A DNA stretch of 64,000 nucleotides from an uncultured Thermoleophilia bacterium (GTDB lineage: Bacteria; Actinomycetota; Thermoleophilia; UBA2241). Of the stretch, positions 1-48,263 are shown piece by piece. The notes under the pieces were generated by a model that worked only from the letters and a program-made list of their open reading frames with translations, was not told where the DNA came from and ran no database searches. The stretch covers positions 124,989 through 188,988 of the forward strand of contig CAVZSF010000003.1 in the NCBI GenBank assembly GCA_963777895.1. The letters run 5' to 3'. The translations under genes and the position numbers were made by a program. Numbering within the stretch: the first letter of the stretch is position 1; each line of letters starts with the position of its first letter.

Positions 1-2831
1 CCATGTGCAGGCCGCGGGCCGCGTTGCCCATGTTGTCGCCCAGGTCGATCGACATCGCCATGCGGAAGTCGACTTCCGCCGCCTCCATGTCGCCGATGCG
101 TGCGGCCACCGCCCCGTACATCGCCGGCGAGAGCGACGAACCGTGGCTCGTGATCGGCTCGTAGTAGCGGTAGTTGGCCGCCATCGTCTCCTTGTCGATC
201 TCGTTGGACAGCACGTAGCAGAGCATCACCGCATCGGCCTGTTTCACCACCTTGGACCGCAGCGTGACCTCGCGGCCCAAGAGCAGGTCGGCGGCCATGG
301 GCCGCGGCCGCAGCTTCTCGGGCGGGACGTCGTCGAGGCCGTGGAAGCCGGCGAACTGTTCGAAGACCTGGGTCGCCGGGTCCATGCCGTCCACGAGGTT
401 GTCGGCCACCTCGCGCCAGCCCGCCAGCTCCCGGGCGGTCACCTTGAGACGTTCGCGCAAGCGTGCCGCCGCGCGCCGATCAGTCGCCTCGAGCCAGCGC
501 AGCGCCTCGATGCCGTGCCGGATGTTCCAGCGCGCCAGGCCGTTCGTATAGGCGTTGTCGTCGACGCCCTCGTGATACTCGTCCGGACCCACGACCATCC
601 TGATGTGGTAGCGGCCCTCGGCGTCGCGTGACGAGCGCGACGCCCAGAACCGCCCCGTTTCCAATAGCAGCTCCACGCCCATGCTCTTCATGAACTCGTC
701 GTCGCCGGTGACCTTCCAGTACTCCCACGCCGCCCAAGCCACGTCGGCCGAGATGTGGTGCTCGAGCAGACCGGAGAGGATGGGGATGATCTCCCCGTCT
801 GGCCCGTAGCCGTAGGGCGGCGTCGTCTCGACGCCCCTGTCCGCCGACTCCCAAGGGAAGAGGGCGCCCTTGTGGCCCATCTGCCGGGCCTTCTCGCGCG
901 CCCCCGGGAGGTTGCGGTACCGGTAGGCGAGCAACGTGCGCGCCGTCTCAGGATGCGAGTACATGAAGAACGGCAGCACGAAGATCTCGGTGTCCCAGAA
1001 GACATGGAGGAAGTAGGACATCCCGCTCAGGCCGCGCGCGCCGACGGAGACGGCGTCGTTGGTGGGATGCGCCGTGCTGATGAGGTGGAAGATCGAGAAG
1101 CGCAGCGCCTGCTGCGCCTCGGCGTCGCCTTCGATGACGAGGTCGGCGTCGCGCCAGCGCTGCCGCCAGGCGGCGCGCTGGCGCCGCAGCAGCTCGTCGA
1201 AGCCGAGGCGCTCGGCCCGCTCGAGCGCGCTGCGCGCGCTCTGCACGGACGGAACGCGGCTGCGGCCGGCGGCGATGGCGGCGAACCGGTCCACCGTGGC
1301 CGGTTCGCCGGCCTCCAGCCGCCCGCCGATCACGTCGCGGGCCTGTTCCACCCGCCGCGACACCGGCGAGCCCGAGGCCGGCCTGGTCGTCACCGCCAGG
1401 ACGTGGCCGCCCCCGTTGCGCCCCTTCGAGAGGGCGACGAAGCCGGGCTGGTCGCCGAGCGTCTCGAACGTGGTCTCGCGCAGCGGTCCGCCGGCGTAGC
1501 TGACGCCGACCAGCCCTTCCCAGATGAGATGGGCGCCGGCGTCGACCGGGACGGCCTCGGCGCGGATGGCCATCAGACGCCCGGTCGTCGAGCGAGGCGA
1601 ACCGGGCGGTGCGCACCCGCAGGATGCGGTCGGCCCGGTCACGCTGCGTCCAGAAGCGGTAGACGACCCCGTCCTTCATGTCGAGCACGCGGTGCTGCTC
1701 GAGCAGCTCGCCGTTGGCGAGCGTCAGGTACATGTCGCCGGCCTTGAGGCGCAGGCCGAGCCAGTCGGGCGCCGCCACGGGCTGCCGGAAGCGCGGCTCT
1801 CCCGTGCCGTCGCCGTAGACGCCGGCGACCAGGGTCGCCGGCGTCGACACGGCCGAGCCTTCCTCCAGAGCGCCGCGCGTGCCCGTGGCCCCGTTGGCCA
1901 CCGTCAGCCACGTCTCGACCTCGCGCTCGCGGTAGGGGTCGAAGCCGTGCACCTCGAAGCGCCACGCCGCATCGCTCGTCGGTTGCGGGAACTGCTCGCG
2001 CGCTTCGCGGCCGCGGCGCTGGATCTGCTGCTCGAGGACGGCGATGAGACCGGAGGGGCCGCCGCCCAGGACGCGGACGCGCGGCGGCACATGGTCGCCG
2101 CCCTCGCCGACCGACACGAGGGCGGCGCGGCGCATGTCGGGCACGAGCAGCGCCCGTTCGGGCGTGGCCCGCCCGTTGACCAGGCCGAACTCGTGCCCGA
2201 CCAGCAGCAGATCGCGCGGGTCCCGGTCGCGGTCGGCGACGAGGCGGCGCAGGACGTAGCGCATGGCGTCCGCCTCGTCGGTGAGACCTATCTCGATGCT
2301 CTGCGACGTCCAGGAGATCGAAGGGTGCGCGAGACCGGCGTTGACGGCGAGCCGTTCGGCCACGTCCACCCAGGCCGTCGCGAGGTCGATGACGGCGTCC
2401 TCTACGCGCACCAGGCGCCGGTTCGTGCGGTACTCGATGCGGGCCGTGTGCCCTGAGTCGGCCAGATCCTGGCGGAGCTCTTCCGCCGCCGCCGTCAGCG
2501 CCGCCTCCTCGCGCTCACTCGCCTGCCGGCGCTCCAGCAGGCGGGCGCCGTTCGGGCCGACGACGTAGACCTCGGAACCCTGCGAGAGCAGCAGGAAGAG
2601 GCGGCCCTCGACACCCGGCCGCGCGCGCAACTGCCCGTCGATGCGGCGCACGTCGCCGCGCGCGACGATGGCGACGTCCACGCCGAGCGACGTGAGCCGC
2701 TCGACGGCGCTCCGCACGGCGCGCGCGGCCGCTCTCGGGCCGCTCACGGCGGTGCCCTCCCACGTGAAGGTCACCACCGCGAAGTCGCGCTCGAGGTCGC
2801 GGGGAAGGTCGTCGATGCGTCGCTGTGCCAT
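1..2831 (-). CDS. HAD-family phosphatase fused to glycoside hydrolase family 65 (trehalose-6-phosphate phosphatase OtsB1-like). 5' partial at the window edge, with an apparent frameshift near 1565-1590.
   Basis: Minus-strand translation gives an N-terminal HAD/TPP-like domain (start ATG at 2831, MAQRRIDDLPRDLERDF...) followed by a GH65 N-terminal domain (WRFEVHGFDPYREREVETWLTVANG...). After ...RFASLDD the sensible frame shifts: it continues ...RLMAIRAEAVPVDAGAHLIWEGLVGVSYAGG... and, in frame 1021 mod 3, the GH65 catalytic motif FHLISTAHPTNDAVSVGARGLSGMSYFLHVFWDTEIFVLPFFMYSHPETARTLLAYRYRNLPGAREKARQMGHKGALFPWESADRG. That frame is open to position 1. The ORF-track 1223-aa ORF is a chimera of this gene and antisense of the next. 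Confidence 0.7.
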
Positions 2832-6867: not shown

Positions 6868-6913
6868 GACGGGAGGGCTCGGTCCTGGACCCAAGGGCGG
6901 GAAGGAAGAAGGC

Positions 6914-7717: not shown

Positions 7718-7814
7718 CGTCCGGGACGGCGGCGCGCCGCGCAACGAGGCCCGCCTGATCCTCAGAGCGTCGGCCGGCGCGGGAGGTCTAAGATCGCCGG
7801 CCGCGCGGCAGGCT

Positions 7815-8657: not shown

Positions 8658-8699
8658 CTGCGGGCGGACCGTCCGATCATCTGTCTCGCGGCGAAGGCG

Positions 8700-9914
8700 T
8701 CAGGACTGGTCCGGCCGGCGGGCCGCAAGGTCGGCGAAGCTGCGCGTCCGCAGCCCCGCGTGCTTCTCGGCGATCGTCACCGCCAGCGCATCCAGCGCCG
8801 CGAAGTCGGCCGCGCGCGGCAGCCCCTTGGCCAGCACTGGCTCAAGGAACTCGACCTTGAGCTTGTCCATCATGCCGACGAGTGTCTCGACGGTCTTGCC
8901 GGCCCAGCCGTAGGAGCCGATCACCGTCGCGTACTTGGTGCGCGGCTTGAGCGCGTTCGCGAGGAAGGCCGCGTGGGCGGCCAGCGGATGCGGCCCGGTG
9001 AGCACCGTGGGCGTCCCGATCACAACGGTGCCGGCGTGCACCAGCGAGCTGGCGAGCTCGCCGGCATCCAGGGTCGTGAGGTCGAAGCGCTCGACGGCTA
9101 CGCCCCGGTCCGTCAGGGCCGCCGTCAGGTGATCCACCATGAGCAACGTGCTGTCGTGCATCGAGACGAACGGCAGGCAGACGATGTTCTGCGGGTCCCC
9201 GGTCGCCCAGTCCCGGTAGGCCTCGATGATGAAGCTGGGGTCGTCGTACACAGGACCGTGGCTCGGTCCGATCAGCGCGATCGGGTACTTCGTCACCTTC
9301 TCGATGTTCTTCGTCACCTGACCACCGAACGGCATCATGATCTCGGCGTAGTAACGCTTCGCCCCGTCGTAGACCTCGTGCCTGTCGGCGAAGACGTCGT
9401 TGGTCGCGTAGTGAGAGCCGAAGAAGTCGCAGCTGAAGAGCATCCTGTCTTCGGCGAGCCAGGTGCTCATCGTCTCGGGCCAGTGGACCCAGGGCGTGAG
9501 GACGAAGGTGAGGGTCTTGTCGCCGAGGCTGAGGGTGTCGCCGTCGGCGACCACCTGGAAGCGCGCGTCGTCTACGTGCAGATGGTCGATCAGCATCCCC
9601 CTCGCCTTCTCATTGCAGACGATGGTGAGGTCGGGGAAACGCTCGAGCAGCATCGGGGTCGAGCCTGAATGGTCCTGCTCGACGTGGTGGATGACGAGGA
9701 AGTCGGGGGCGGGCAGGTCGTCGAGCTGGGCGCTCAGGGTGGGCCACTTCGCGGGGTCGACCGTGTCGATGAGAACGCTCTTCTCGCTGCCCTTGACGAA
9801 GTAACTGTTGTAGCTGGTGCCGTGGGGCAGCGGGATGAGCGCGTCGAACAGGCGGCGATCCCAGTCGACGGCGCCGATGAGGTAGACATTCGGGACGATC
9901 TCGCGTGGCTTCAT
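8700..9914 (-). CDS. Flavodiiron protein (FprA / A-type flavoprotein: MBL-like di-iron domain plus flavodoxin domain)
   Basis: Di-iron ligand motifs HHVEQDHSGS and PWVHWPETM, with a C-terminal flavodoxin-like domain (TVVIGTPTV…). ATG at 9914 is preceded by GAGGGG. Confidence 0.8.
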   Translation of the reverse strand: MKPREIVPNVYLIGAVDWDRRLFDALIPLPHGTSYNSYFVKGSEKSVLIDTVDPAKWPTLSAQLDDLPAPDFLVIHHVEQDHSGSTPMLLERFPDLTIVCNEKARGMLIDHLHVDDARFQVVADGDTLSLGDKTLTFVLTPWVHWPETMSTWLAEDRMLFSCDFFGSHYATNDVFADRHEVYDGAKRYYAEIMMPFGGQVTKNIEKVTKYPIALIGPSHGPVYDDPSFIIEAYRDWATGDPQNIVCLPFVSMHDSTLLMVDHLTAALTDRGVAVERFDLTTLDAGELASSLVHAGTVVIGTPTVLTGPHPLAAHAAFLANALKPRTKYATVIGSYGWAGKTVETLVGMMDKLKVEFLEPVLAKGLPRAADFAALDALAVTIAEKHAGLRTRSFADLAARRPDQS

Positions 9915-9993
9915 GACACCCCTCGGGATGTAGCAGGCGAACGGCTGGCGGCAGGGATTATATCCACGCCGCACGCGCGGCTACCGCGCTGGC

Positions 9994-11319
9994 TTGGCCG
10001 GCACGACCGCTCGCTATACTGCCGCCATGAGTCCCTTCGCCCGAGACCGTCCGACTGCGCGCAGTGACCGCCGCAGGATGGTCCTCGTGTTGTTGCTGGT
10101 CGCCGCCGTCGCTTTGTGCGTGCGCTTCGCCTACGTCGCCCGCGCCGGCGGCCCGGCCGAAGACTACGTGCACGACGACCACGACGTGATCGGCATCAAC
10201 GTCGTGACCGGCCACGGGTTCAGCTACCAGGCGGGCAAGGACACGCCCACCATCACACGCGCACCCCTCTTCCCCCTGGTGCTGGGCGTGACCTATCTGG
10301 CCGCGGGACATCAAAGGGATTTCACCCTGTGGCGTTCCGTCGAGGCGGTCGTGGAGGCGGCCACCGCCGTCCTGCTCGCCCTCCTGGTACTGCAGGCCGC
10401 GCCCGGGGTGCCGCGAAACCTCCATATTGCCGGCGTTGCCGGCACTCTCTACGCCCTGAACCCGCAGGCAGCACAGTGGGCCACGAGGCTCACGCCTGAG
10501 ACGTGGATGACGTTCTTCGCGGTTCTGGCGGCGCTGGCGTTCGTCGTCTGGCTCCGCCGGGCGAGTTACGCCAGCGCCGCCCTCCTGGGCCTGACCCTGG
10601 GCCTCCTGATCCTGACGAAGAGCGTGTCGCTGGGCGTGCCCGTCATCGCCGCCGTCGCCGGCGCCCTGCTGGTGCGCCGCGACGGGGCCCCGGCCCGACG
10701 CGCCGTCCTGTGCGGCGTGCTCGTCCTCGTCGTGGCGTACAGCGTGGTCGCGCCCTGGACGATCCGCAACTATCGGGTGTCGCACGCGTTCGTCCCCGTC
10801 CAGACCCTGACTTGGTACAACTTCTGGATGGGGATGGAGGCTGGACGAGGTCCCTCGCCCGGCTACGACCCTCTCTCCGTGGAGTACCAGACGCGGCCGT
10901 TCTCTATAGAGCAGAAGACGCCCGCGCAGGATCTGCAGCGAGAGGCCATGTTGCGCGACCACGCCTTGACGTTCGTTCGTGAGCATCCTGGTGGCATGGC
11001 TCGGAAGATCGGCGACGACCTCGTCGCCTTCTGGTACGAGTGGAACGCGGCGACCTTGAGGACCCCCGCAGCCGCCGCCTATCTGCTACAGCTTGCCTTG
11101 GCGGTCGCGGGCGTCGTCATCGGGCTGCGACGGCCAGGCCTGCGCCGGCTCGCCGGCGTGTGCCTGGCCTTCCCGGTCTACTACGTCGTCGCGTACTCAC
11201 CGTTCTTCGCGCACTTCCGCTTCTCCCTGCCGACGATCCCGTTCACGGCCGCGCTCGCGGCCATCGCGCTGGTGGCGGCTGCCCGGTGGGGGCGGACTCT
11301 GACGCGGCCGTCGTCGTAG
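9994..11319 (+). CDS. Membrane glycosyltransferase, GT39/GT83 (ArnT / PMT_2-like)
   Basis: Multi-TM protein with an N-terminal D-rich loop (EDYVHDDHDVIG) and PMT_2-like topology. The start could be 9994 or 10027. TAG stop at 11317-11319. Confidence 0.65.
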   Translation: MAGTTARYTAAMSPFARDRPTARSDRRRMVLVLLLVAAVALCVRFAYVARAGGPAEDYVHDDHDVIGINVVTGHGFSYQAGKDTPTITRAPLFPLVLGVTYLAAGHQRDFTLWRSVEAVVEAATAVLLALLVLQAAPGVPRNLHIAGVAGTLYALNPQAAQWATRLTPETWMTFFAVLAALAFVVWLRRASYASAALLGLTLGLLILTKSVSLGVPVIAAVAGALLVRRDGAPARRAVLCGVLVLVVAYSVVAPWTIRNYRVSHAFVPVQTLTWYNFWMGMEAGRGPSPGYDPLSVEYQTRPFSIEQKTPAQDLQREAMLRDHALTFVREHPGGMARKIGDDLVAFWYEWNAATLRTPAAAAYLLQLALAVAGVVIGLRRPGLRRLAGVCLAFPVYYVVAYSPFFAHFRFSLPTIPFTAALAAIALVAAARWGRTLTRPSS

Positions 11320-11406
11320 CCTCCCACTCCTAGCCGCTTCCACTTGCGGTCAGAAGTGACCGCGACGACCGTGGGTCTCTACCAGGCCGTCAGCGACGGC
11401 TGCGCC

Positions 11407-12636
11407 TCAGCCTCGGCGCTCCAGCTCGTCGGCGAGCTGCTCCACGAACAGGCCGACGTCGGTGACGATACCGATGGCCTGGAAGCTGCCGCGGTCGGCC
11501 AGCTTCGTCACGACCGCGGGGTTGATGTCGACGCACACCGTGCGCACGGCAGCCGGCAGCAGGTTGCCCGTGGCGATGCTGTGCAGCATCGTCGAGAGCA
11601 TCAGGCAGGCGCCGGCGCGCTGCGCGTACTCGCGCATCGTCACCTGCGCCTCGATCACGTCAGTGATGACCTCCGGCAACGGTCCGTCATCGCGGATGCT
11701 GCCCGCCAGCACGAAGGGCGTCCCGGTCTTCACGAGCGTGTGCATCAGACCCTTGGTGAGCACGCCTTGCTCGACCGCGTCCTTGATCGAGCCGCAACGG
11801 CGTATCGTGTTGATGGCGCGCAGATGGTGCTCGTGGCCGCCGGGGATCGGCGTGCCCTCTGTCAAGCTGATGCCGAGCGAGGTCCCGAACAGGGCCGACT
11901 CGATGTCGTGGGTGGCGACCGCGTTGCCGCCGAAGACGGCGCCGACGTAGCCCGCCTCGATGAGGCGGGCCAGGTGCGGCGCCGCCCCCGTGTGGATGAC
12001 CGCCGGGCCGACCACGGCGATGGTCAGCTTCCCTTCATCCCTCACGTGCCGCAGCAGGCGTGCCACCTCGTGGACGATCTGCGCCTTGGGTTTCTCGCTC
12101 GAGACCGCCGACGCCATGAACTCGAAGGGCTGGCTCTCGCGCGGCCGCTCGAGCGGCAGCACGCGCAGCCCGTGGTGTCCGGCCACGTAGAGCTCGCCGG
12201 CCGAGACCTCGCCCATGGGCACGGTCTCGGCCGTCCCCGCCCCCACGTCGACGCGCACGCCGCAGTCCATCTCGGGCCTCTCGACGCGCACCCACTCGCC
12301 CTTGAGGCGCACGTACGTCTCCAGGTTGGTGGTCGAGTAGAAGTCGTCGGGGAAGACGCCGTCCTTGGGCGCCGGCTCGAGCTGCGCGTCCTCCGGCGAC
12401 ACCGCCACGACGCCGTGCTCGGTGATGACCGTGAGGATCTCCTCGAGGTGCGCGCGGTCGCGCCCGTACACGCGCATCACCGCGGTCGAGATGTCGTTCT
12501 GCGTGCGGCCCACGCGGAAGTCGAGGACCTCGAACTCGCCCTCGAGGTCCATGATCGCGTCCCAGACCTGGGGCAGCATCAGCGAGTCGATGAGGTGGCC
12601 CTGAAGCTGGACGTCTTCGTAAGGCTTGTCGGGCAT
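11407..12636 (-). CDS. TIGR00300-family protein (archaeal-type ornithine cyclodeaminase-like, LOR/SDH conserved-domain family)
   Basis: From ATG 12636 (GGAGG upstream): MPDKPYEDVQLQGHLIDSLMLPQVWD… and a C-terminal GGNAVATHDIE… region typical of this family. The ORF-track N-terminal 47 aa are an upstream extension. Confidence 0.5.
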   Translation of the reverse strand: MPDKPYEDVQLQGHLIDSLMLPQVWDAIMDLEGEFEVLDFRVGRTQNDISTAVMRVYGRDRAHLEEILTVITEHGVVAVSPEDAQLEPAPKDGVFPDDFYSTTNLETYVRLKGEWVRVERPEMDCGVRVDVGAGTAETVPMGEVSAGELYVAGHHGLRVLPLERPRESQPFEFMASAVSSEKPKAQIVHEVARLLRHVRDEGKLTIAVVGPAVIHTGAAPHLARLIEAGYVGAVFGGNAVATHDIESALFGTSLGISLTEGTPIPGGHEHHLRAINTIRRCGSIKDAVEQGVLTKGLMHTLVKTGTPFVLAGSIRDDGPLPEVITDVIEAQVTMREYAQRAGACLMLSTMLHSIATGNLLPAAVRTVCVDINPAVVTKLADRGSFQAIGIVTDVGLFVEQLADELERRG

Positions 12637-12739
12637 CGGCGCCTCCACCGCACCTGGGTTGGCGAACACAGGATAGCAGCAGGCACACGAGCCCGAGAGG
12701 CGCGATCCGCCGGAGGCAGACCAGTCAGGTCCCGGTGCG

Positions 12740-12753
12740 TTGACTAAGGTCAA
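12740..12753 (+). promoter_or_regulatory. FNR/CRP-family (Dnr/NnrR-type) binding box TTGACTAAGGTCAA upstream of the qNOR gene
   Basis: Perfect inverted repeat TTGAC-N4-GTCAA about 85 nt upstream of the qNOR ATG, followed by AT-rich TAAATAT at about 12783-12789. Confidence 0.4.
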
Positions 12754-12836
12754 CGCCCCAGTAAACGGCGCTTCCATAGTGTAAATATCCTAGACTGGCC
12801 ACGATCGTGGGGGTCACCGTGCACAAAGGGGGAGTC

Positions 12837-15200
12837 ATGAGTGGTCGCGTTGAGGATCCACGCCGTCCGTTGATCCTTTCGCGGCGCTGGGTCCAGGTCT
12901 CGCTGCTGGTCTTCGTACTCGGCTTCTTCGGTCTTGGCCTGGCCGGCTACCTCAACTACCGGGACGAGCCGCCGATGCCGGCGAAGGTCGTGGACGCCTC
13001 GGGCCAGACGCTCTTCACGCACGACGACGTGATCGCCGGCCAGAGGCGTCTTTCTCGGCAACGGTCTGATGCAGTACGGCAGCATCTTCGGGCACGGCGC
13101 CTACCTCGGCCCCGACTTCACGGCCGACTATCTGCACCGGCAGATCGGCTCGATGCGCGCGCGGGCGGCGGTGGGGACGGCGCCGCGGGCGCAGCCCATC
13201 CCGGCGCCGCCGCCGTGGCCGCATCCGACGGCGCCGCGGCGCAGATCGCCGCGGCCATCACCAGCGACCTCAAGACCAATCGCTACGACGCCGCCACCGA
13301 CACCCTTACGCTTCACCGCCGCCCAGACGGCCGCCTTCGACGATCTCGTGCGCTACTACACAGGCTACTTCTCGACGCCCACCACCAAGTTCGGTCTGCG
13401 TCGCGACGCCATCACCAAGGCGCAGGAGCTGCGCGACCTGACCGCCTTCTTCGCGTGGACGGCGTGGGCCGCGGCGGCCAACCGGCCCGGCAAGCAGTAC
13501 TCGTACACCAACAACTGGCCGAGCGAGACGGCGATCGGCAACACGCCGACCGCCGACGCCCTGCTGTGGAGCGCGCTCTCGCTCATCGCCCTCATCGGCG
13601 GCACCGGCCTCCTGCTCGCGCATCTTCGGGCGCTACGACTGGCTCGGCTGGCACCGGCGCGAGCAGCAGCAGCTCGACTTCCGCAGCGCCCGACGCCGTG
13701 ACGATCACGCCGGCACAGCGCGCCACCGGCTGGTTCTTCTTCGTGATGGCGCTGCTGTTCGTCCTGCAGACGCTGGTCGGCGCGCTGACGCAGCACTACC
13801 GCGCCGACCTCGCCAGCTTCTTCGGCGTCGACGTCGGCCGCCTGCTGCCCTACAACCTCTCCCGCACCTGGCACGTCCAGCTCACGATCTTCTGGGTGGC
13901 GACCTCGTTCCTCGCGGCCGGCATCTTCCTGCTGCCGCTGATCACGAGGCGCGAGCCGCAAGCGCCAGGGCCTGCTGTCGTACGCGCTGCTCGGCGCGCT
14001 CGCGGTCGTCGTCTTCGGCAGCCTGTTCGGCGAGTTCGCCGGCCAGCGCGGCTGGTTCGGCAGCCTGTGGCCATGGTTGGGCAGACCAGGGGCTCGAGTA
14101 CGTCGACCTCGGCCGCTTCTGGCAGATACTGCTCATCGTCGGCATGCTCCTCTGGGTGTTCATCGTCGTCCGCGGCCTGCGCCGCCGGCTCGCCGGCGAG
14201 AGCTTCGGCAACATGCCCTGGCTCTTCCTCTACGCCGCTCTCGCGATCCCCGCCTTCTACGCGGTCTCGCTGCTCGCCAGCCCCAGCGGTCACACCACCA
14301 TCAACGACTACTGGCGCTTCTGGATGGTGCACCTCTGGGTCGAGGACTTCCTCGAGCTGTTCACGACCGCGATGGTGGCCTACGTCTTCGTGCTGCTCGG
14401 TGTCGTCCACGAGCGCACCGCGCTGCGCGTCATCTACCTCGACATCATCATCTACTCGGTGGGCGGCGTGATCGGCACCATGCACCACCTGTACTTCTCG
14501 GGGACGCCGGCGGCGACCATGGCGCTGGGCGCGCTGTTCAGCGCCGCCGAGATCATCCCGCTCACGCTGCTCACGGTCGAAGCGTGGAGCTTCGTGCGGC
14601 TGGGGGCGCGCGAGACCGCAGGCTTCGCGCGCGCCTTCCCGCACTACTGGGCCGTCATGTTCCTCATCGCCGTGGGCTTCTGGAACTTCCTCGGCGCCGG
14701 CGTCTTCGGCTTCCTCATCAACCTGCCGATCGTGAGCTACTTCGAGATCGGCACCGGGCTGACGGCAAACCACGCGCACACCGCGATGATGGGCGTCTAC
14801 GGGATGCTCGCCGCCGGACTCGCGATCTTCTGCCTGCGCTATCTCGTGCCCGAGAAGCAGCTGGTCCGACCGCGCCGCGCGGATCTCGTTCTGGTCGCTC
14901 AACGTCGGCCTCGCCTGGATGGCGTTCGCCAGCCTCTTCCCGCTCGGCGTGCTGCAGCTCTACCACTCGGTGGCCGACGGCTACTGGCAGGCGCGCACGC
15001 TCGACTATCTGGGCAACACACGAACACGGTGCTCGAGTGGGTGCGCCTGCCCGGCGACGTGCTCTTCATCCTCGGCGGGCGCGCTGCCGCTGCTGTGGCT
15101 TGCTTTCTGGGCGATCGCCGGCCGCAAGGGCGTGGCGATCGCCGACGACTACGACGCGACGCTCTACTCCGAGCTGCCGGCGGAGGTTGCCGAGGCCTGA
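12837..15200 (+). pseudogene. norZ: Quinol-dependent nitric oxide reductase (qNOR, NorZ/NorB family, heme-copper oxidase superfamily). Full length (~788 codons) but interrupted by about 10 frameshifts.
   Basis: Conserved qNOR segments sit in alternating frames: …FTHDDVIAGQ | VFLGNGLMQYGSIFGHGAYLGPDFTADYLHRQ | …AAITSDLKTNRYDAATDTLT | FTAAQTAAFDDLVRYYTGYF… | ITPAQRATGWFFFVMALLFVLQTLVGALTQHYRADL…HVQLTIFWVATSFLAAGIFLLPLI | KRQGLLSYALLGALAVVVFGSLFGEFAGQ | …HLWVEDFLELFTT…IGTMHHLYFSG…GHHAY-type His ligands… | …LGVLQLYHSVADGYWQARTLDY. GGGGGAG RBS before ATG 12837. Ends TGA 15198-15200. Confidence 0.75.
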
Positions 15201-15206
15201 CGCCGG

Positions 15207-16109
15207 CTACGACGCCGTGGGGATGACGGGCCGGCCCTCGTCGACGGGCCGGCCCTCCGGGCCTCGCCTCGACGGCAACGTCTCGATGATGAGGATGCCG
15301 CTGAAGATCAGGGCGGCGCCGGTCACGAGGCGCCACGTGATCGTGTCCATCCCGAAGATGATCCCGAACACGGCGCTCGACACACTCTCGAGGCAGAGCA
15401 GGACCGCGGCGTGCGTGGACGTCGTGCGGCGCTGTGCCCACGACTGCAGGAAGAAGGCGTAGATCGTGCCGCTCAGCGCCGTCCACACGACGGCCGCCCA
15501 GACCTCCCACGGCAACGAGAAGCTGATGTCGGTCGTCAGAACCGCGATCACCGTCGCCAGCACGGCGCTGACCGCGATCTGCGTGACGGCCAGCGTCGCC
15601 GGCGGCACCTTGGGCGCGAAGAACCCGGTGGCCATGATGTGCAGCGCGTAGCCGAGGGCGCCCAACAGGGTGAGGGCGTCGCCCCAGCTGATCGTGAGGT
15701 CGCCGCGCAGCGAGAGGACGCCGAGACCGGCGGTCGCCACGATGGCGCCGAGCACCTGCGTCCAGCCGGGTGAGCGGCGAGCCACCATCCAGTAGAGGAA
15801 GGGCACCATGGCCACGCTCAGACCGGTGATGAAGCCTGACTTGCCCGGGGTGGTGTACTGCAGGCCGATCGTCTGGACGATGAGGGCGGTGCAGTAGAAG
15901 ACGCCGAGGATCCCGCCCATGAGCCAGTAGCTCTTCGTGCTGCGCGTGAGGCTGCGCGGCATGATGGCGGCGAAGATCGCCGTCGCCACGAGGTAACGCA
16001 GCATGATGTAGAGCATCGGGTCGACACGCCCGATGACGTCCTTGATGACGACGAAGTTGAAACCCCAGACGACGGCGATCGAGAAGAGCGCCGCATCGGC
16101 CACGAGCAT
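15207..16109 (-). CDS. EamA/DMT-superfamily transporter
   Basis: Start at the internal ATG (MLVADAALFSIAVVWGFNFVV…). 10-TM EamA-like protein. Confidence 0.7.
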   Translation of the reverse strand: MLVADAALFSIAVVWGFNFVVIKDVIGRVDPMLYIMLRYLVATAIFAAIMPRSLTRSTKSYWLMGGILGVFYCTALIVQTIGLQYTTPGKSGFITGLSVAMVPFLYWMVARRSPGWTQVLGAIVATAGLGVLSLRGDLTISWGDALTLLGALGYALHIMATGFFAPKVPPATLAVTQIAVSAVLATVIAVLTTDISFSLPWEVWAAVVWTALSGTIYAFFLQSWAQRRTTSTHAAVLLCLESVSSAVFGIIFGMDTITWRLVTGAALIFSGILIIETLPSRRGPEGRPVDEGRPVIPTAS

Positions 16110-16164
16110 CTGGCGGCGCTCGCCCCGGTCGCGGGCCACCGCGGCGTCTTCCACGTCACCTCCA

Positions 16165-16190
16165 GCGCGCCCGAGCCTGGTCGGGCGCGG
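16165..16190 (-). terminator. GC-rich hairpin downstream of the ABM monooxygenase gene
   Basis: CGCGCCCGA-GCCTGG-TCGGGCGCG inverted repeat. Confidence 0.4.
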
Positions 16191-16261
16191 CACCGCAGGC
16201 GCCGCGCCCCCTCCACGGCACTGAGTCTACGCTGCGGCTCGCCGGGGACGCATCCCGACGG

Positions 16262-16543
16262 TCACACCTCCACGAGGGCGAAGCCTTCCGGGTCTCGCTC
16301 TTCCCACTCGTCGAAGGGGTCGTCCTTGACCGCCGCACGCATCGCCTCGACGCCCGACCGCCAGCTCGCCTCGTCCTCCCAGATGGCGAGACCGACGAGC
16401 CTGCCGCTGCGCAGGTCTTTGAGCGTGTGCAGCTCGCGCAGGCCGGCCGCCCCGGACGCGGCTCTCCCATAGCGGTGCATGGAGTCGATCAGGTCCGGTT
16501 CCCGCCCCGGCTTCGGCTGATGGATCGACATGTGGACGAACAT
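16262..16543 (-). CDS. Antibiotic-biosynthesis-monooxygenase (ABM/Dabb) family small protein
   Basis: 93 aa with a ferredoxin-like ABM fold signature (…LAIWEDEASW…). Confidence 0.6.
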   Translation of the reverse strand: MFVHMSIHQPKPGREPDLIDSMHRYGRAASGAAGLRELHTLKDLRSGRLVGLAIWEDEASWRSGVEAMRAAVKDDPFDEWEERDPEGFALVEV

Positions 16544-16593
16544 GGGGCCTCCTTACGGCGTGATGCTCCTCACATCACCGCCGCGTCACGTGC

Positions 16594-17910
16594 TCACACC
16601 GCCAAGCCGCACCAGCGCATCGCCGCCAGGGCGTAGACCGCGGCCGCGTCGACGAGCTCGTCCTCGACGATCCACTCGTCGATCGTGTGCGCCGTCGCAA
16701 GCGCATCAGGTCCATAGGAGAAGGTCGGGGTCCCGCCACGCAGCGTGAAGGTGGCGGCGTCATGCCACGAGTCGAGACCGCCGGGCCTGCCCTGACGGCC
16801 CAGCCCGGCCCCGGCATCGAGCGTCGCCACGACCAGCGGATGGTCGGCCGGCATCTCGGCGGGCACGATGTCTGAGTGCCAGTCGTAGGTGAGCGGGTGC
16901 TCGTCAAACCAGGGATCGGTCGCCGCCGCGGCCTCGAAGGCCTGCCGGATCTCCGCCTCGACGGCCTTGCCGGTGCCCTCCTCGTCGAGGCGGCCGGGCA
17001 GGTACATCGAATCGAAGCAGATCGTGCAGCTCGCCGGATACGTGACCTCCCAGGTGCCGCCGCTGATGATGGTCGGCACGATATCGCCCGGCGAGAGCAG
17101 CGGATGCTGCTGGTCCGGGCGGTCACGCCACTCGTCACGGAGGCGCTGCGCCGCCTGGATGATCGGCAGCGCCTTCTCAATGGCGTTCACGGCCCCGCCC
17201 TCGCGCCAGTGAGGCTGGCGCACCTCGGCGTGGCCCGGGCGCCCCTCGACCGTCACGAAGGGCGTGAGGGTGCCGCGGCAGGCCACCCAGGCGTCGAAGC
17301 CCGTAGGCTCGGCGCAGATGCCCGCGTCGGCCTTCACGCCCCGCGCGACGCAGGCGAAGCCGCCCGCGCCCGAGGACTCCTCGTCGGTGTTGGTGCAGAA
17401 CACGACGTCGCCGGCAAGGCGGACGCCGGCGCGCGCCAGCGCTTCGAGGGCGACCACCAGGGCGGCCACGCCGCCCTTCATGTCGCCCACGCCGCGGGCG
17501 TACAGCCGGGCGTCACGCCGCGTCAGCGTGAACGGGTCGCTGGTCCACTTCTCGCGCGGCTCGACGTCGACGGCGTCGATGTGGCCGTTGAGCAGCAGGC
17601 TGCGCCCGCCGCCCCCGCCGCGCAGCCGCGCGGCGAGCTGCGGGCGCCCGTTGAAGTCGAGCTCATCGGGCACGTGCCGATTGCCGCTCCCCGTGGCCTC
17701 GGGCTCCCAGAGGTCCGTCTCGGCGCCCAGCGCGATCAGCCGCCGTTCGAGGATCCGCTGCAGCTTCTCCTCGTCGCGCGCCGGCATCCCCACGGTGCGT
17801 GCGGTGGTGTCGCAGGCGACGAGCTCGGCCGTCAGGCCGAGGAGCTCGTCGCGCGCCTCCCGCACGCCGGCCACGACCTTCTCCTCGAGCGCTGAACGCA
17901 CGTCTGACAC
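16594..17910 (-). CDS. M20-family metallopeptidase / deacylase (ArgE/DapE-like)
   Basis: LLNGHIDAVDV, GVGDMKGG and TDEESSGAGG motifs of the M20 family. Confidence 0.8.
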   Translation of the reverse strand: MSDVRSALEEKVVAGVREARDELLGLTAELVACDTTARTVGMPARDEEKLQRILERRLIALGAETDLWEPEATGSGNRHVPDELDFNGRPQLAARLRGGGGGRSLLLNGHIDAVDVEPREKWTSDPFTLTRRDARLYARGVGDMKGGVAALVVALEALARAGVRLAGDVVFCTNTDEESSGAGGFACVARGVKADAGICAEPTGFDAWVACRGTLTPFVTVEGRPGHAEVRQPHWREGGAVNAIEKALPIIQAAQRLRDEWRDRPDQQHPLLSPGDIVPTIISGGTWEVTYPASCTICFDSMYLPGRLDEEGTGKAVEAEIRQAFEAAAATDPWFDEHPLTYDWHSDIVPAEMPADHPLVVATLDAGAGLGRQGRPGGLDSWHDAATFTLRGGTPTFSYGPDALATAHTIDEWIVEDELVDAAAVYALAAMRWCGLAV

Positions 17911-18189
17911 CTCGGCCTCCTCGGCTCACGCTGCCGGAGCAGCGAACGCTTGCTGGCGGACCGGCCGGACGGCGCCGACCGGGCCTCGCGCTGATTCTAC
18001 GGCGCGAGGCCCGGCCTCCGCCGATCCGCGCCTTCGCTGCGCACGTACCGCGCTCGCCCGCCAAGGCGCAGTCGACCACCCTTGCGCGCCTCGAGCCGAT
18101 GTGCTTCTGTCAGCGAGATGACAGCAGGGGGTGCCCGCGCTCGGCCGTCCCCGCGACGGCCCGCCAGGCCCGCCCATCGAGGAGGAGAC

Positions 18190-18588
18190 ATGGAGGACAT
18201 CAGCACCAAGCGAGTCCGCGTCGTCAAGCCTGAGGACGTCGCCTGGGAGCCGGCGGCCGTCTATCCCGAAGAGCAGGACCCGCCCGGGAAGGAATACACC
18301 GCGGCGCAATCGTTCGACGAGAAGTTCAGCTTCGGCCTGTGGCAGCGCGACGTGCAGCGTCGCTACTTCGAGCGGCCCTACCACGAGATCGCCTACATCA
18401 TCGAAGGCCAGGTCGAGATCACCGAGGACGACGGCACGATCGTCATCGCCGGCCCGGGCGACGTCCTCATCACTCCCCGCGGCTCCAAGGGTTTCTGGAA
18501 GAACCTCACGCCGGTGAAGAAGGTCTGGGGCATCTACGAGGAGCCGAGCGGCGACATAGAGGCGTACAAGGGGCCGGGAGCGTTCTGA
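18190..18588 (+). CDS. Cupin-domain protein
   Basis: GGAGG-N4-ATG at 18190 (MEDISTKRV…). The conserved-barrel segment YHEIAYIIEGQVEITEDDGTIVIAGPGDVLITPRG fits a cupin. Confidence 0.6.
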   Translation: MEDISTKRVRVVKPEDVAWEPAAVYPEEQDPPGKEYTAAQSFDEKFSFGLWQRDVQRRYFERPYHEIAYIIEGQVEITEDDGTIVIAGPGDVLITPRGSKGFWKNLTPVKKVWGIYEEPSGDIEAYKGPGAF

Positions 18589-18614
18589 GAGGTCCCGGCG
18601 CCTGAGCTGCCGGG

Positions 18615-18728
18615 GCGCGCGTGACCAGCGGTCCCCAGCACTACCCAGAGCACGGACCCAACTGCGCCGTCTCCTTCGAGGACCCGAGCGGCAACGGTCT
18701 CGAGGTGGTGCACCGCTCCAGGGAATGA
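18615..18728 (+). pseudogene. Remnant of the C-terminus of a VOC/glyoxalase-family gene
   Basis: A 37-codon frame with no start, …QHYPEHGPNCAVSFEDPSGNGLEVVHRSRE*, typical of a VOC C-terminal beta-strand region (DPDGN.LEL). Confidence 0.3.
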
Positions 18729-18766
18729 GCGGCTCGGGGGCTCGGCGGGCGGTATAGCATCAGCTT

Positions 18767-19984: not shown

Positions 19985-20050
19985 TGGGGACAGGTGGATC
20001 CACCCGGCTCCCGGCGGCCGCCGGGAGCCGGGTGACAAAGGCGAGCGAAC

Positions 20051-29257: not shown

Positions 29258-29266
29258 GCTTGCCCC

Positions 29267-43475: not shown

Positions 43476-45261
43476 TCAGGCCTGCGTCGCGAACCCGAGC
43501 CGGGCGGCGAACTGCGCCTGGAAGTCCTTGTTCGTGGCGAGCTCGAGGAAGGAGATGCGGCGGCGCAGGCGCGCCATGCGACGGCGCGCGAGCACGTCGA
43601 TGAGGGCCATCTGGGCGCCCACCCCGGCGGCGTTGCCCACGAACAGGACGCGGTCCGTGGGCACCGGCGGCAGCAGGTCTATGTACAGCGAGTTGCCCAG
43701 GTCGAGGTAGTTGCCGAAGGCGCCGGCGACGTACACCCGATGCAGGTCGGCCACGCTCACCCCCAGGCTCTCGAGCAGCAGGGTCCAGCCTGTCGCGATC
43801 GCGCCTTTGGCCAACTGCAGGTTGCGCACGTCGTGCTGCGTGAAGACGATCTCGCCGTTGGGACCGCTGGTCAGCAGGTACTCGGACGATCCCGACTCGC
43901 CCTTGCGGACCAGCGGGTGCGACAGCATGCGTCCGCTGCGGTCCACGACGCCGCTGCGCACCAGACCGGCGAGCAGGTCGACCACGCCCGAGCCGCACAT
44001 GCCGAGCGGGGCGCCGTTCCCGATGGTCTGGATGCTCGCGGGGTGGCCGGCGGCATCGATCGTGACCTTCTCGATCGCGCCGGCGACCGCCTTCATGCCG
44101 TGGGTGATCTGGTAGCCCTCGAAGGCGGGGCCCGAGGCGCAGCTCGTCACGGTGACCTCGCCGTCGTGCACGAGGGCGATCTCGGTGTTGGTGCCGATGT
44201 CGATGGCGAGCGACGGGCGGCGGCGCGTCGCGAGCCGCGTCGCGGCGATCACGGCGAGCGCGTCCGAGCCGACGAACCCGGCGATCGGCGGCGGGAAGTA
44301 GACGCCGCCCTCGGGGTTCATGTCGATGCCGAGGTCGGCGCCGCGCACGAGCACCGGCTCGGCTGCAGCCGGCGCGTAGGGCGCGGCGCCGAGCCCCTGG
44401 GCCGGCAGGCCCAGGACCAGATGATGCATCGCCGTGTTGCCGACGACCGTCATGTCGTAGAGGTGCTTCGCCGCGATGCCCTGACGCTGATACAGGGCGG
44501 CCAGGCACTCGTTGACGCCCGACCTGGCCGCCTCCGCCAGCTCCGCGCGGTGCTCGCCCGACTGCGCGATGCGGCTCACGACGTCCTCGCCGTAGCGCAT
44601 CTGGGGGTTCTCCACGGCCTCGGAGTCGACGTGCTCGCCGCGTTCCAGGTCGAACAGGTACGTCACGATCTTCGAGGTGCCGATGTCGACCGCGGCGCCG
44701 TGGGCGACGCCCGCCGCCTCCGGCGCCTCGACATCGATCAGGCGCCGCCCGTACCGCGTGAACGTCGCGCGCCAGCCGTTGCCGCGGAGCACGTCCGGCG
44801 CCTCCCGCAGTGCCTGGTACGGGACCTCGACCCCGTGCAGCACGGCCTGCACGCGCTCGAGGTCGCTGCGGGCGTCGCCGATCACGGGCGGGTCGAGCTG
44901 CTCGGTCACGCGCGTCACCGCCGGATGGGCGGCGCCGTGCCGCAGCCGGCTCGTGGTCAGGATGCGCCTGCGTGCCGCTGGTCTCGCGCACCTCGATGCT
45001 GACACGGGAGGACACCGGCCGCGCCTGACAGGCGAGCCGCCAGCCCGTGGCGCGCAGCTTCTCCGGGACCTTGCGGATCTCGACCTCGGTCGGCTCCGTG
45101 AGCTCGCCGGCCCCGAGGCGCACGAGGCACTTGCCGCACGTGCCCCGTCCGGCGCACACGTTGGGGACGTCGATACCGACCCGCAGGAGGGCGTCCAGCA
45201 AGGTCTCGTCCTGGCCGACCTCGAGGGTCACGCCGATGGGCTCGACGAAGACTTTGGTCAC
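43476..45261 (-). CDS. Corrinoid reductive activase (RamA/RACE family: N-terminal 2Fe-2S ferredoxin domain plus ASKHA ATPase domain), with an apparent frameshift near 44900-45005
   Basis: N-terminal plant-type ferredoxin (MTKVFVEPIGVTLEVGQDETLLDALLRVGIDVPNVCAGRGTCGKCLV…) in one frame. The ASKHA/DUF4445 body (…AAVDIGTSKIV…, …AIDIGTNTEIALV…, …CGSGVVDLLAGL…) is in the adjacent frame (ORF 43476..45005). Confidence 0.7.
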
Positions 45262-46804: not shown

Positions 46805-48263
46805 TTACAGACCGGCGGTCGCGATGATCCGCTGCAGGATGGCCGCACGCTCGTCGTCGAGCGGTTCCACCTCGTGCTTCGCGAGCAGCTCGGCGGCGAG
46901 GCCGGCCGCGTTGTCGGCCGCGTCGCGGCGGCCGCCCGCGACCCACGCCTCCCAGGGGGAGCGGTCAAGCAGGCGGGGGCGCCACACGTCCTTCATGTGC
47001 TGCCGCGTGTGGCGCTGTCCGAGGAAGTTCCCACAGATGTCGACCTGCTTGATGGCCTCGAGGGCCAGGGTCTCGTCGTCCACGGTGATGCCCTGCGCGA
47101 TCGTCGCCGACCAGGAGAAGAGCTCCGTGTCGGCCACGAGTTGAGCCTGCGAGTAGACGCGGCCGCCGGCAAGCGCGCCCGCGCCGCAGGCAAGGGGCAC
47201 GCCGGCAAGGGCGGCCGTGAGCGCGGCGAACGAGCCGTCGGTGGAGGCCTCCCAGTCGACGGTCTCGGCGTCGGTGCGCAGCACGTCCGCGACGGCCGGC
47301 AGCCCGGCGCGGGCGGCGAGCTGCGCGGCGGCCAGCGTGAAGAGCTGGGCGGCCGCGCCGGTCGCCGCGACGCCGGCGAGCGCCGGCCGCACGGGCACGA
47401 AGAACGCGGCTCCCGGCGCGAGCGCCTGCAGGGCGGCGTTGGCAGCCAGGGCGCGCGCGAAAAAGGACACGATGGCGGCGGTCAGGTCTGGGCCGCCGGT
47501 GACGCCGAAGGCCGGGCATGCCTGCGGAGCGGGCGCGGCCGGTACGCCGACCGGCAGGCCGGCCGCCGCGAACACGCCCGCGGCGGCGAAGGCGCCCGGT
47601 CCGGCGAACAGGGAGAGTGGCGGCCTCGCGCGCCGCTCGTCCGTCGGCGTCCCGAAGAGCCGTGGCCATGGCCACGGCGGCCTCCGCCTCCTCGACCGCG
47701 GCCGGCGTCGTGAGCAGGACATGCTTCGTCGTGGAGCCCACGGCGATCTCGATCTCGGTCAGCAGCCGCAGGCCGCGCTCGACGTCGAGCGCGCGCAACG
47801 GCGGCCCGGCGACGACGGCGACCTCGGGGAGAGCGTCGGCGAGCCGCACGGCCGCTTCGAGCTGCCCCGCGGTCGCCCGGACCGGCTGGTCCGCACCGGC
47901 GGGGAGCGCCTCCGGCGCCGGCTCGCCGCCGGCGGCCAGCAGACACGCACCGGCCGCGAGGACGACGTCCTGGGCCGCCGCGCGGGCACCCAGCAGGAAC
48001 TCCTTGGGCGCCCGCGCGGCGGCCTCTTCGGCCAGCCCACGCGGCACGGCCAGGGCGCCGGTGTCGGTGACGCGTGCGCCTGCGCCGGCCAGCGCCTCAC
48101 GCGCGCGCACGTCCGGAACGGTCACGCCCTCGGTCTCGAGCAGTGTCAGCGCGGCATCGTAGAGAAGCTCCGCGTCTTCTTGCGCGAGCACGCGCAGGGC
48201 GACGTCCGTCCGCCACGTCAGTGGGGGTCGGGGTGTGTCGATGGTGGGGGTTGTCCCGGTCAC
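46805..48263 (-). CDS. Divergent Ala-rich MttB-superfamily methyltransferase homolog, with an apparent frameshift near 47600-47720
   Basis: The N-terminal part (GGAGG-N8-GTG at 48263; …ALRVLAQEDAELLYDAALTLLETEGVTV…) is in the frame of ORF 46965..48311. The C-terminal part (…ETLALEAIKQVDICGNFLGQRHTRQHMKDVWRPRLLDRSPWEAWV…PLDDERAAILQRI…) is in ORF 46805..47722. Confidence 0.6.

What the first reader, a model, noticed from the sequence alone, without database searches (positions are those of the whole stretch)
12837..15200. Full-length qNOR riddled with about 10 frameshifts, far denser than in neighbouring genes
Every conserved qNOR block is present in order and the locus keeps native length (~788 codons) with start, RBS and stop intact. 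The reading frame nonetheless changes about 10 times.

Neighbouring large genes (UPF0182, 2.9 kb; GGDEF, 2.1 kb; MoeA; KamA) have none. This non-uniformity argues against simple random sequencing error. The alternatives are a recently inactivated gene accumulating indels, or a locally low-quality or low-coverage assembly region.

The upstream TTGAC-N4-GTCAA box and AT-rich -10 are preserved. I cannot tell from sequence alone whether the locus is dead or mis-sequenced.
Basis: seen in the sequence. Interest (0 to 1): 0.55.

Follow-up and report, generated by a model that had tools for sequence, protein, structure and literature searches.

The report
Assembly artefact in a nitric-oxide reductase gene
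The ten frameshifts in this nitric-oxide reductase gene are almost certainly consensus errors made when a metagenome assembler merged two co-occurring strain variants, so the gene is very probably intact and the finding is ordinary.

Summary
The qNOR gene at 12837-15200 (+) changes frame exactly 10 times: 8 single extra bases and 2 missing bases.

The cause is almost certainly not gene decay. A same-species contig (ENA ERZ25039545 contig_53806) is 98.8% identical over the locus. It has the same gene order and carries an intact 785-aa qNOR. It differs from the window by those 10 single-base indels plus 30 substitutions.

- The substitutions show strong purifying selection: 23 synonymous, 7 non-synonymous, dN/dS 0.10.
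- Only 3 substitutions are derived on the window's branch, against 10 indels.
- All 8 insertions place a second base next to the relative's base, and that base is a natural allele of the same column in other qNOR sequences (null 0.23 per event, P = 9e-6). Both deletions hit variable columns.
- The same two-alleles-in-tandem +1 events occur in other genes of the relative contig, and again in qNOR of a third contig.

This is the signature of a haploid consensus built over mixed strains. Three more frameshifts lie elsewhere in the window (GH65, RACo, an MttB-like gene).

Verdict: not a real feature. Interest is low.

The parts
12837..15200 (+). Quinol-dependent nitric oxide reductase (qNOR/NorZ) gene, broken into 11 frame segments in the deposited sequence
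   Evidence: Searches give the frame map; the corrected protein hits PF22085 (residues 48-228) and PF00115 (295-740). E = 7e-162 to the solved qNOR 3AYF over residues 23-755.
13043..13043 (+). Extra G. The window reads CAGAGGC, a merge of the alleles CAAGGC (L082, L081) and CAGAGG (L087).
13169..13170 (+). Missing base. It is the third position of an Ala codon (GCT in L082 and L087, GCG in L001), a variable column.
13311..13312 (+). Extra base. The window reads ACG-C-TTC, which holds both first-position alleles: CTC (L082) and TTC (L087, L081, L001).
13620..13620 (+). Extra G. The window reads GCGC, which holds the Ala alleles GCC (L082, L087, L081) and GCG (L001) in tandem.
13685..13687 (+). 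Extra base. The window reads AGCG, a merge of AGG (L082) and GCG (L087, L081).
13959..13962 (+). Extra base. The window reads CCG-C-AAG. The column is A in L082 and L087 and C in L081 and L001. The alignment here is ambiguous, so this is the least clean of the ten sites.
14082..14082 (+). Extra C. The window reads GGCA, which holds the Gly alleles GGC (L081) and GGA (L082); L001 has GGT. The same GGCA tandem is present in contig L087, which comes from another sample.
14860..14860 (+). Extra G. The window reads CAGC, against CAC in L082 and CGC in the outgroups. The same CAGC string occurs in L087.
15016..15017 (+). Missing C at the AAC|CAC codon boundary. The adjacent column is variable (C, T and A among relatives).
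15076..15076 (+). Extra C. The window reads GGCG, which holds the Gly alleles GGC (L087, L081, L001) and GGG (L082) in tandem.
12740..12753 (+). TTGACTAAGGTCAA inverted repeat about 100 nt upstream of the ATG. It is a likely binding site for a CRP/FNR-type regulator; the function is inferred, not tested.
   Evidence: single match in the window, 0.02 expected by chance; the box sits at the same distance in L082 (identical), L081 (TTGACTTAGGTCAA) and L001 (TTGACCTTCGTCAA).
12824..12833 (+). Shine-Dalgarno-like AAAGGGGGAG, ending 3 nt before the ATG
   Evidence: Read directly from the sequence. Identical in L082.
44969..44969 (-). Extra base that splits the RACo gene (Fer2 domain plus RACo domains) into two frames. 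The relative's gene is an intact 594 aa.
47643..47643 (-). Extra base that splits an MttB-like gene. On the coding strand the window reads GACG, where the relative reads GAG. The relative's gene is an intact 485 aa.
1575..1600 (-). Probable +1 frameshift in a GH65 glycoside hydrolase/phosphorylase gene. No relative sequence covers this site.
   Evidence: the GH65 N-terminal domain stops at profile position 131 of 233 in one frame, and the GH65 catalytic domain follows in another frame.

Best explanation
The locus is an ordinary, functional, regulated qNOR (norZ-type) gene. Its deposited sequence is a faulty haploid consensus.

The contig was very probably assembled from a metagenome in which at least two strains of the same species carried qNOR alleles differing at about 40 positions (1.7%). 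One allele resembles the relative contig L082 and the other is closer to the ancestral state.

The consensus or polishing step resolved about 30 of these sites to one allele. At 8 sites it wrote both alleles one after the other, giving a +1 frameshift. At 2 sites it wrote neither, giving a -1 frameshift.

Shown here:
- the ten indels;
- the intact orthologue;
- purifying selection on the substitutions;
- the coincidence of every indel with a natural polymorphism, carrying the matching allele;
- the recurrence of the same error type in other genes and other contigs.

Inferred:
- the window contig is a long-read (Flye/Medaka-style, Nanopore-only) metagenome assembly;
- two haplotypes were present in its reads.
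For: 1. Intact orthologue. Contig ERZ25039545:contig_53806 has the same gene order (M20 peptidase, EamA, qNOR, ArgZ-like) and a continuous 785-aa qNOR. It is 98.8% identical to the window over 2.8 kb and differs by exactly ten 1-nt indels.

2. No indels in the flanks. None in window 6588-13042 or in 15077-20369.

3. No sign of decay. 23 synonymous against 7 non-synonymous codon differences, with 22 of the 30 differing positions at codon position 3. dS is 0.040, dN 0.004, dN/dS 0.10. Outgroups place only 3 substitutions on the window branch, against 10 indels.

4. Indels sit on natural alleles. All 8 insertions put an alternative allele of that same column, seen in L087, L081 or L001, next to the relative's base. 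The null probability is 0.235 per event, so P = 9.2e-6. Both deletions fall on variable columns.

5. Same error type elsewhere.
- The relative contig has three +1 insertions in its MttB gene (window 21992, 22199, 22648), where the window's ORF is intact.
- Contig L087, from another sample, has 8 single-base insertions in qNOR relative to L082 (7 net, with one nearby 1-nt deletion). An example is CGGC, which combines CGG (L082) and CGC (window). Two of these events match the window's own.

6. Indels track diversity. Single-base indels between the two assemblies correlate with SNP density (Spearman rho 0.58, P = 3e-6). qNOR has 12.7 SNPs/kb against 2.2 and 4.5 in its flanks.

7. Assembly context. 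Contig names of the form contig_NNNNN are Flye-style. A large soil MAG project describes Flye --meta plus one round of Medaka on Nanopore-only data (PMC12313526). Flye collapses strains of about 98.65% identity into one consensus (PMC8302730). Polishers are haploid, and heterozygous sites contribute to their residual errors (PMC7483855).
Against: - No reads or coverage data could be inspected, so the presence of two haplotypes in the window's own sample is inferred.
- The window's own record could not be retrieved. Its sequencing technology and pipeline are therefore not documented here.
- I found no paper describing the exact both-alleles-in-tandem failure of a polisher.
- Site 13959 fits the model less cleanly than the others.
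- The codon-position test on its own is only weakly significant (P about 0.01-0.05).
- Mis-calling about a quarter of heterogeneous sites as indels is a high rate.
Confidence: 0.9

Rival explanations
1. Genuine pseudogene: the strain really carries ten frameshift mutations in a recently inactivated qNOR.
For: The sequence as deposited has 10 frame changes. qNOR looks like an accessory gene at this locus, because contig L086 lacks it between the EamA and ArgZ-like genes, so its loss would be tolerable. A second contig, L087, also has a broken qNOR.
Against: - dN/dS is 0.10, and only 3 substitutions are derived on the window branch against 10 indels. From general knowledge, in real bacterial pseudogenes substitutions greatly outnumber indels, and deletions outnumber insertions. 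Here 8 of 10 events are insertions.
- There is no premature stop in the corrected frame and no larger deletion.
- All 8 insertions duplicate a natural polymorphic column with the alternative allele (P = 9e-6). A mutation process blind to polymorphism would not do this.
- A 98.8%-identical relative is intact.
- The same kind of +1 event hits different genes in different assemblies.
Confidence: 0.04
2. Random sequencing or consensus error in a locally low-coverage or low-quality stretch, unrelated to strain polymorphism.
For: The window and its relative also differ by homopolymer-length indels typical of long-read consensus errors, for example at 20370, 21387, 24934, 28099 and 46711. Three isolated frameshifts occur elsewhere in the window.
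Against: None of the eight qNOR insertions is a simple extension of a long homopolymer run; apart from 13312, which reads as T to TT when aligned to L082 alone, each adds a base different from its neighbours. All eight coincide with natural variable columns and carry the matching alternative allele, whereas random events would do so 23% of the time. The errors stop at the edges of the SNP-dense gene, and more than 5 kb on either side is clean.
Confidence: 0.05
3. Biological recoding: programmed frameshifting or transcript editing restores the reading frame.
For: The net shift is 0 modulo 3, and the start and stop codons are in the same frame.
Against: Ten recoding sites in one gene would be unprecedented. 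Orthologues at 98.8%, 87% and 85% identity have one continuous ORF with no shift at these positions. The sites share no common motif. A net shift of 0 is expected by chance one time in three.
Confidence: 0.01

Closest known systems
Quinol-dependent nitric oxide reductase (qNOR/NorZ), e.g. the Geobacillus stearothermophilus structure PDB 3AYF/3AYG
   Same: The corrected protein aligns over residues 23-755 with E = 7e-162. It has the fused N-terminal cytochrome-c-like domain (PF22085) and the haem-copper oxidase catalytic domain (PF00115). The His-containing motifs WHVQL, HLWVE, MHHLYFSG and NHAHTAMMGVYG line up with the solved enzyme in the alignment.
   Different: Nothing biologically unusual was found. 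The only difference is that the deposited DNA has ten 1-nt indels.
Frameshift (indel) errors in long-read, Nanopore-only genome and metagenome assemblies
   Same: Single-base indels fragment gene calls in an otherwise well conserved gene. The literature describes such errors as a known cause of truncated proteins in MAGs (PMC9262707; PMC8302730).
   Different: The classic errors are homopolymer-length miscalls scattered over the genome. Here they are mostly non-homopolymer insertions, clustered in one SNP-dense gene, and each consists of two natural alleles in tandem.
Strain-collapsed (strain-oblivious) consensus in metagenome assembly; haploid polishing of heterozygous sites
   Same: Flye collapses strains of about 98.65% identity into one consensus (PMC8302730). 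The two qNOR alleles inferred here differ by about 1.7%. Polishers such as MarginPolish and Medaka are haploid, and heterozygous variation contributes to their residual errors (PMC7483855).
   Different: The papers I read do not describe the specific outcome in which both alleles are emitted as an insertion. That step is inferred from the sequence pattern.
Multiply frameshifted true pseudogenes of genomes undergoing reductive evolution (e.g. Mycobacterium leprae; from general knowledge)
   Same: A full-length gene remnant with many frame disruptions.
   Different: True remnants also accumulate stop codons, non-synonymous changes and deletions. This locus shows none of those: dN/dS is 0.10 and only 3 substitutions are lineage-specific.

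Membership tests
qNOR (quinol-dependent nitric oxide reductase, NorZ type) | Haem-copper oxidase subunit I-like catalytic domain | tested here: met
   PF00115, E = 3.3e-54, residues 295-740 of the corrected protein
qNOR (quinol-dependent nitric oxide reductase, NorZ type) | N-terminal cytochrome-c-like domain fused to the catalytic domain in a single polypeptide of about 760-800 aa | tested here: met
   PF22085, E = 1.8e-57, residues 48-228. Full-length match to 3AYF and to other solved qNORs.
qNOR (quinol-dependent nitric oxide reductase, NorZ type) | Conserved His ligands of haem b, haem b3 and FeB | tested here: met
   The alignment to 3AYF shows identical His residues in WHVQL/YHLQL, HLWVE/HLWVE, MHHLY/GHHYY and NHAHTAMMGVYG/AHGHAAMMGVYG. 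Assigning each His to its metal rests on general knowledge of qNOR.
qNOR (quinol-dependent nitric oxide reductase, NorZ type) | One continuous open reading frame | tested here: not met
   Not met in the window as deposited: 10 frame changes. Met in the 98.8%-identical relative: 785 aa.
Decaying pseudogene | Relaxed selection: dN/dS approaching 1 and an excess of lineage-specific substitutions | tested here: not met
   dN/dS is 0.10. Three substitutions are derived on the window branch, 22 on the relative's branch and 5 are ambiguous.
Decaying pseudogene | Disruptions independent of population polymorphism, with deletion bias, stop codons or larger deletions | tested here: not met
   8 insertions against 2 deletions, no stop in the corrected frame and no indel longer than 1 nt. 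All 8 insertions equal natural alternative alleles (P = 9e-6).
Consensus artefact from collapsed strain variants | Indels coincide with polymorphic sites and contain both alleles, or neither | tested here: met
Consensus artefact from collapsed strain variants | A near-identical genome has the undisrupted sequence | tested here: met
Consensus artefact from collapsed strain variants | The same error type recurs in other genes or contigs of similar assemblies and tracks SNP density | tested here: met
   The relative's MttB gene has three +1 insertions and its MoeA gene has one (window 61402; the relative's MoeA call is only 174 aa). L087's qNOR has 8 single-base insertions relative to L082. Spearman rho is 0.58.
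Consensus artefact from collapsed strain variants | Reads of the sample fall into two haplotypes, each with a single allele per site | not testable with these tools
   No reads were available, and the window's own record was not retrievable.
Programmed ribosomal frameshifting | The shift site is conserved in orthologues and has a slippery motif | tested here: not met
   Orthologues read straight through all ten positions. The sites share no motif.

The most novel reading that the evidence does not exclude
The ten indels are real and sit on single DNA molecules. That would imply an unknown mutational process, for example error-prone repair of heteroduplex DNA after recombination between two qNOR alleles, which converts mismatches into one-base insertions that retain both alleles. 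It would also mean a qNOR inactivated in a burst rather than by slow decay.
Probability: 0.03. Interest if true: 0.6.

Novelty: not a real feature. Interest (0 to 1): 0.08.

Why it matters
There is no new biology here. The organism is probably an uncultured Thermoleophilia-like actinobacterium, judged from the closest named hit, L001. It most likely has a working qNOR under a conserved FNR-like box.

The practical value is in quality control.
- A gene that looks riddled with frameshifts in a long-read MAG can be an artefact of strain mixing rather than a pseudogene.
- Such artefacts cluster in locally diverse genes, so non-uniformity is not an argument against sequencing error.
- Pseudogene counts, metabolic reconstructions (here, denitrification or NO detoxification) and gene-loss inferences drawn from such MAGs would be wrong at loci like this one.
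- The two-alleles-in-tandem signature offers a simple read-free test when a close relative is available.

Tried and rejected
**Led nowhere**
- Exact-protein look-ups for the window's own contig returned nothing, although cluster look-up shows the proteins exist on a 332,283-bp NCBI/ENA contig. The record name, sample and sequencing method therefore remain unknown.
- The genome-contig scan and the protein search returned nothing closer than 85-86% identity. The 98.8% relative was reached only through cluster members of a neighbouring gene.
- Literature searches found background on strain collapse and haploid polishing, but no explicit description of tandem-allele insertions.

**Too weak on its own**
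- A test of whether indels favour codon position 3 became weak once alignment ambiguity was allowed for (P about 0.01-0.05). I replaced it with the allele-coincidence test.

**Considered and rejected**
- Homopolymer-type error: the insertions are not extensions of long homopolymer runs.
- Periodic or motif-linked error such as methylation sites: the sites share no motif, and the relative, with the same sequence context, lacks them.
- Programmed frameshifting: orthologues have a continuous ORF.
- Ancient pseudogene: dN/dS is 0.10.

**Method caveats**
- The GC3-based frame HMM sees only 8 of the 10 switches, because the last two lie 58 nt apart. It also gave one false blip at 51147-51259 inside a continuous ORF.

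Full report
**1. The observation**

The window is about 70% G+C. Translating 12700-15300 in three frames shows pieces of a qNOR-like protein that hop between frames.

I aligned three full-length homologues (P0001, P0002, P0004; 785-794 aa) to the DNA with my own frameshift-aware dynamic programme. All three give the same result:
- ten frame changes, of which eight consume one extra base and two lack one base;
- about 87% amino-acid identity over the whole length;
- no stop codon in the corrected reading;
- start (ATG 12837) and stop (15198-15200) in the same frame.

A GC3-based frame HMM run over the whole window finds eight of the ten switches independently. The corrected protein carries PF22085 plus PF00115 and matches the solved Geobacillus qNOR 3AYF at E = 7e-162, with the His motifs conserved.

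**2. The rest of the window**

I checked every same-strand frame switch of the HMM against stop codons and then read the translations. This turned up three more +1 frameshifts, all on the minus strand:
- a GH65 gene at about 1575-1600, where the Pfam N-terminal domain ends at the switch and the catalytic domain follows in another frame;
- a RACo gene at about 44969;
- an MttB-like gene at about 47643.

The claim that neighbours have none is therefore only partly true. The contrast is still extreme: 10 frameshifts in 2.36 kb against 3 in about 61.6 kb. The binomial test on the 12 window-side frameshifts in the ~57 kb covered by the relative gives P about 1e-12.

**3. A same-species relative with an intact gene**

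Exact-sequence look-up of neighbouring proteins showed two things. The window's proteins sit on a 332,283-bp NCBI/ENA contig. Proteins more than 90% identical to them sit on a 326,213-bp ENA contig, ERZ25039545:contig_53806.

Fetching that contig around the M20 peptidase gene (locus L082) revealed the same gene order and a continuous 785-aa qNOR. The DNA alignment over window 12600-15400 is 98.8% identical, and its only internal gaps are ten single-base indels, exactly the ten frameshifts.

Four loci of the relative (L082-L085) cover window 6588-34599 and 35392-64000.
- There is no indel at all in 6588-13042 or in 15077-20369.
- The relative's RACo (594 aa) and MttB-like (485 aa) genes are intact, which confirms two of the window's extra frameshifts.
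- The relative has its own cluster of three +1 insertions in another MttB gene (window 21992, 22199, 22648). That gene is intact in the window (21399-22841).
- The relative also has an extra base in MoeA (window 61402), and its MoeA gene call is only 174 aa.

Both assemblies therefore carry the same kind of defect, but in different genes.

**4. Decay or artefact?**

With the indels removed, the window and the relative differ at 30 codons in qNOR: 23 synonymous, 7 non-synonymous, and 22 of the 30 differing positions at codon position 3. Nei-Gojobori estimates are dS 0.040, dN 0.004 and dN/dS 0.10.

Polarising with two outgroups (L081, L001) puts 22 substitutions on the relative's branch, 5 ambiguous, and only 3 on the window's branch. 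A gene that had drifted long enough to collect ten independent indels should show many lineage-specific substitutions, stop codons and deletions. It shows 3 substitutions, no stops and no deletion longer than 1 nt, and 8 of the 10 events are insertions.

**5. What the indels are made of**

None of the inserted bases extends a long homopolymer run. Several instead split a run: AA becomes AGA, CC becomes CGC, GG becomes GCG, and GGGGG becomes GGCGGG.

I aligned the window with L082, with a third related contig (L087, ERZ25039513:contig_14412, 91.7% identical) and with two outgroups of about 83% identity. At every insertion the window carries two natural alleles of one column side by side. Examples:
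- AGCG at 13685-13688 combines AGG (L082) and GCG (L087, L081).
- C+TTC at 13311-13314 combines CTC (L082) and TTC (the other three).
- GGCG at 15074-15077 combines GGG (L082) and GGC (the other three).
- GGCA at 14080-14083 combines GGA (L082) and GGC (L081).
- CAGAGGC at 13040-13046 merges CAAGGC (L082, L081) and CAGAGG (L087).

Both deletions remove a base at a variable column.

In a simulation, a random insertion places an alternative natural allele next to the resident base 23.5% of the time. The observed count is 8 of 8, so P = 9.2e-6. A simpler codon-position test was only weakly significant.

L087's own qNOR has 8 single-base insertions relative to L082 (7 net, with one nearby 1-nt deletion), built the same way. 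One of them, CGGC, combines CGG (the L082 allele) and CGC (the window allele). Two others coincide with the window's events at 14082 and 14860.

**6. Why qNOR?**

Against the relative, qNOR has 12.7 SNPs/kb, versus 2.2 and 4.5 SNPs/kb in its flanks (P = 1.3e-7). The relative's damaged MttB gene is similarly SNP-dense.

Across 55 one-kb bins, single-base indels between the two assemblies track SNP density (rho 0.58, P = 3e-6). There are 31 indels in 17.9 kb of SNP-dense bins and 11 in 36.2 kb of SNP-poor bins. Natural indels in variable intergenic DNA contribute to this trend as well.

qNOR also appears to be an accessory gene at this site. Contig L086 has EamA directly followed by the ArgZ-like gene. 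A locally diverse, exchangeable gene is where co-occurring strains would differ while their flanks stay identical.

**7. Mechanism**

The best-supported reading is a haploid consensus computed over reads from two strain variants. This step is inferred.
- The contig names (contig_NNNNN) are Flye-style.
- A large soil and sediment MAG project used Flye --meta --nano-hq plus one round of Medaka on Nanopore-only data (PMC12313526).
- Flye is documented to collapse strains of about 98.65% identity into one consensus (PMC8302730).
- Polishers are haploid, and heterozygous variation contributes to their residual errors (PMC7483855).

I could not confirm that the window belongs to that project, and I could not inspect reads.

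**8. Comparison with the known, and verdict**

The gene is a standard qNOR with a conserved TTGAC-N4-GTCAA box about 100 nt upstream. The box is identical in the relative and conserved in two outgroups.

The frameshifts are not a biological feature. I put the collapsed-strain artefact at 0.90, random low-coverage error at 0.05, a genuine pseudogene at 0.04 and recoding at 0.01. Interest is low. The residual value is as a caution for pseudogene and pathway calls in long-read MAGs.

Noticed in passing
window 52826-54316 (+), in-frame TAG at 53807-53809: An MttB-family methyltransferase gene has a single in-frame TAG at codon 328 (context ...IPSFVAGL*ADSKLGDAQ...), and the coding frame continues through it. 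The relative contig has TAG at the same codon, and its gene is called as 327 + 149 aa. This is a candidate pyrrolysine codon in a probable Thermoleophilia-like actinobacterium. No tRNA-Pyl lies in the window, and pyl genes were not searched.
   Followed up: partly
window 1575-1600 (-), 44969 (-), 47643 (-): Three further single +1 frameshifts lie in a GH65 gene, a RACo (Fer2 plus RACo domains) gene and an MttB-like gene. The last two are intact in the relative contig (594 aa and 485 aa). They are likely the same kind of consensus error.
   Followed up: yes
L082 5494-6730 (= window 21399-22841); L085 4198-4722 (= window ~61402): The relative contig has its own frameshifts. Three +1 insertions sit in an MttB gene that is intact in the window, and an extra base sits in MoeA, which is called as only 174 aa. 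Each assembly is damaged in different genes.
   Followed up: yes
L087 12858-15240 (ERZ25039513 contig_14412): A third related contig from another sample also has a fragmented qNOR, with 8 single-base insertions relative to L082 (7 net, with one nearby 1-nt deletion). Two of the events are identical to the window's (GGCA at window 14082 and CAGC at 14860). Many other genes on this contig are also called as short fragments.
   Followed up: partly
L086 11746-14037 (ERZ25039513 contig_1771): In a more distant relative (about 81-88% nucleotide identity over the aligned stretches) the EamA gene is followed directly by the ArgZ-like gene, with no qNOR between them. qNOR therefore seems to be an accessory insertion at this locus. 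This contig also carries an MtmB gene with B12-binding genes.
   Followed up: no
window 12740-12753: A TTGACTAAGGTCAA palindrome lies about 100 nt upstream of the qNOR ATG, in the divergent intergenic region shared with the ArgZ-like gene. It is conserved at the same distance in qNOR loci of only about 83% identity (L081, L001). It is probably a CRP/FNR-family (NO- or oxygen-responsive) regulator site.
   Followed up: partly
window 29890-31960 and 25840-25980: Two stretches are far more divergent from the relative than the ~99% background, with dozens of indels and mismatches. The first spans the junction of two minus-strand coding segments (28112-29903 and 29904-31660) and covers nearly all of the second. 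This looks like real strain-variable sequence rather than consensus error.
   Followed up: no
window 21399-22841, 46805-48311, 49625-52540, 52826-54316; RACo 43476-45261; KamA-like 45392-46687: The window holds an unusual concentration of MttB-family paralogues, including a double-length 971-aa form. They sit with a corrinoid-activation (RACo) gene, a lysine 2,3-aminomutase-like gene, a BKACE gene, an aminotransferase gene and several EamA transporter genes. This suggests a methylated-amine or quaternary-amine and lysine catabolic island.
   Followed up: no
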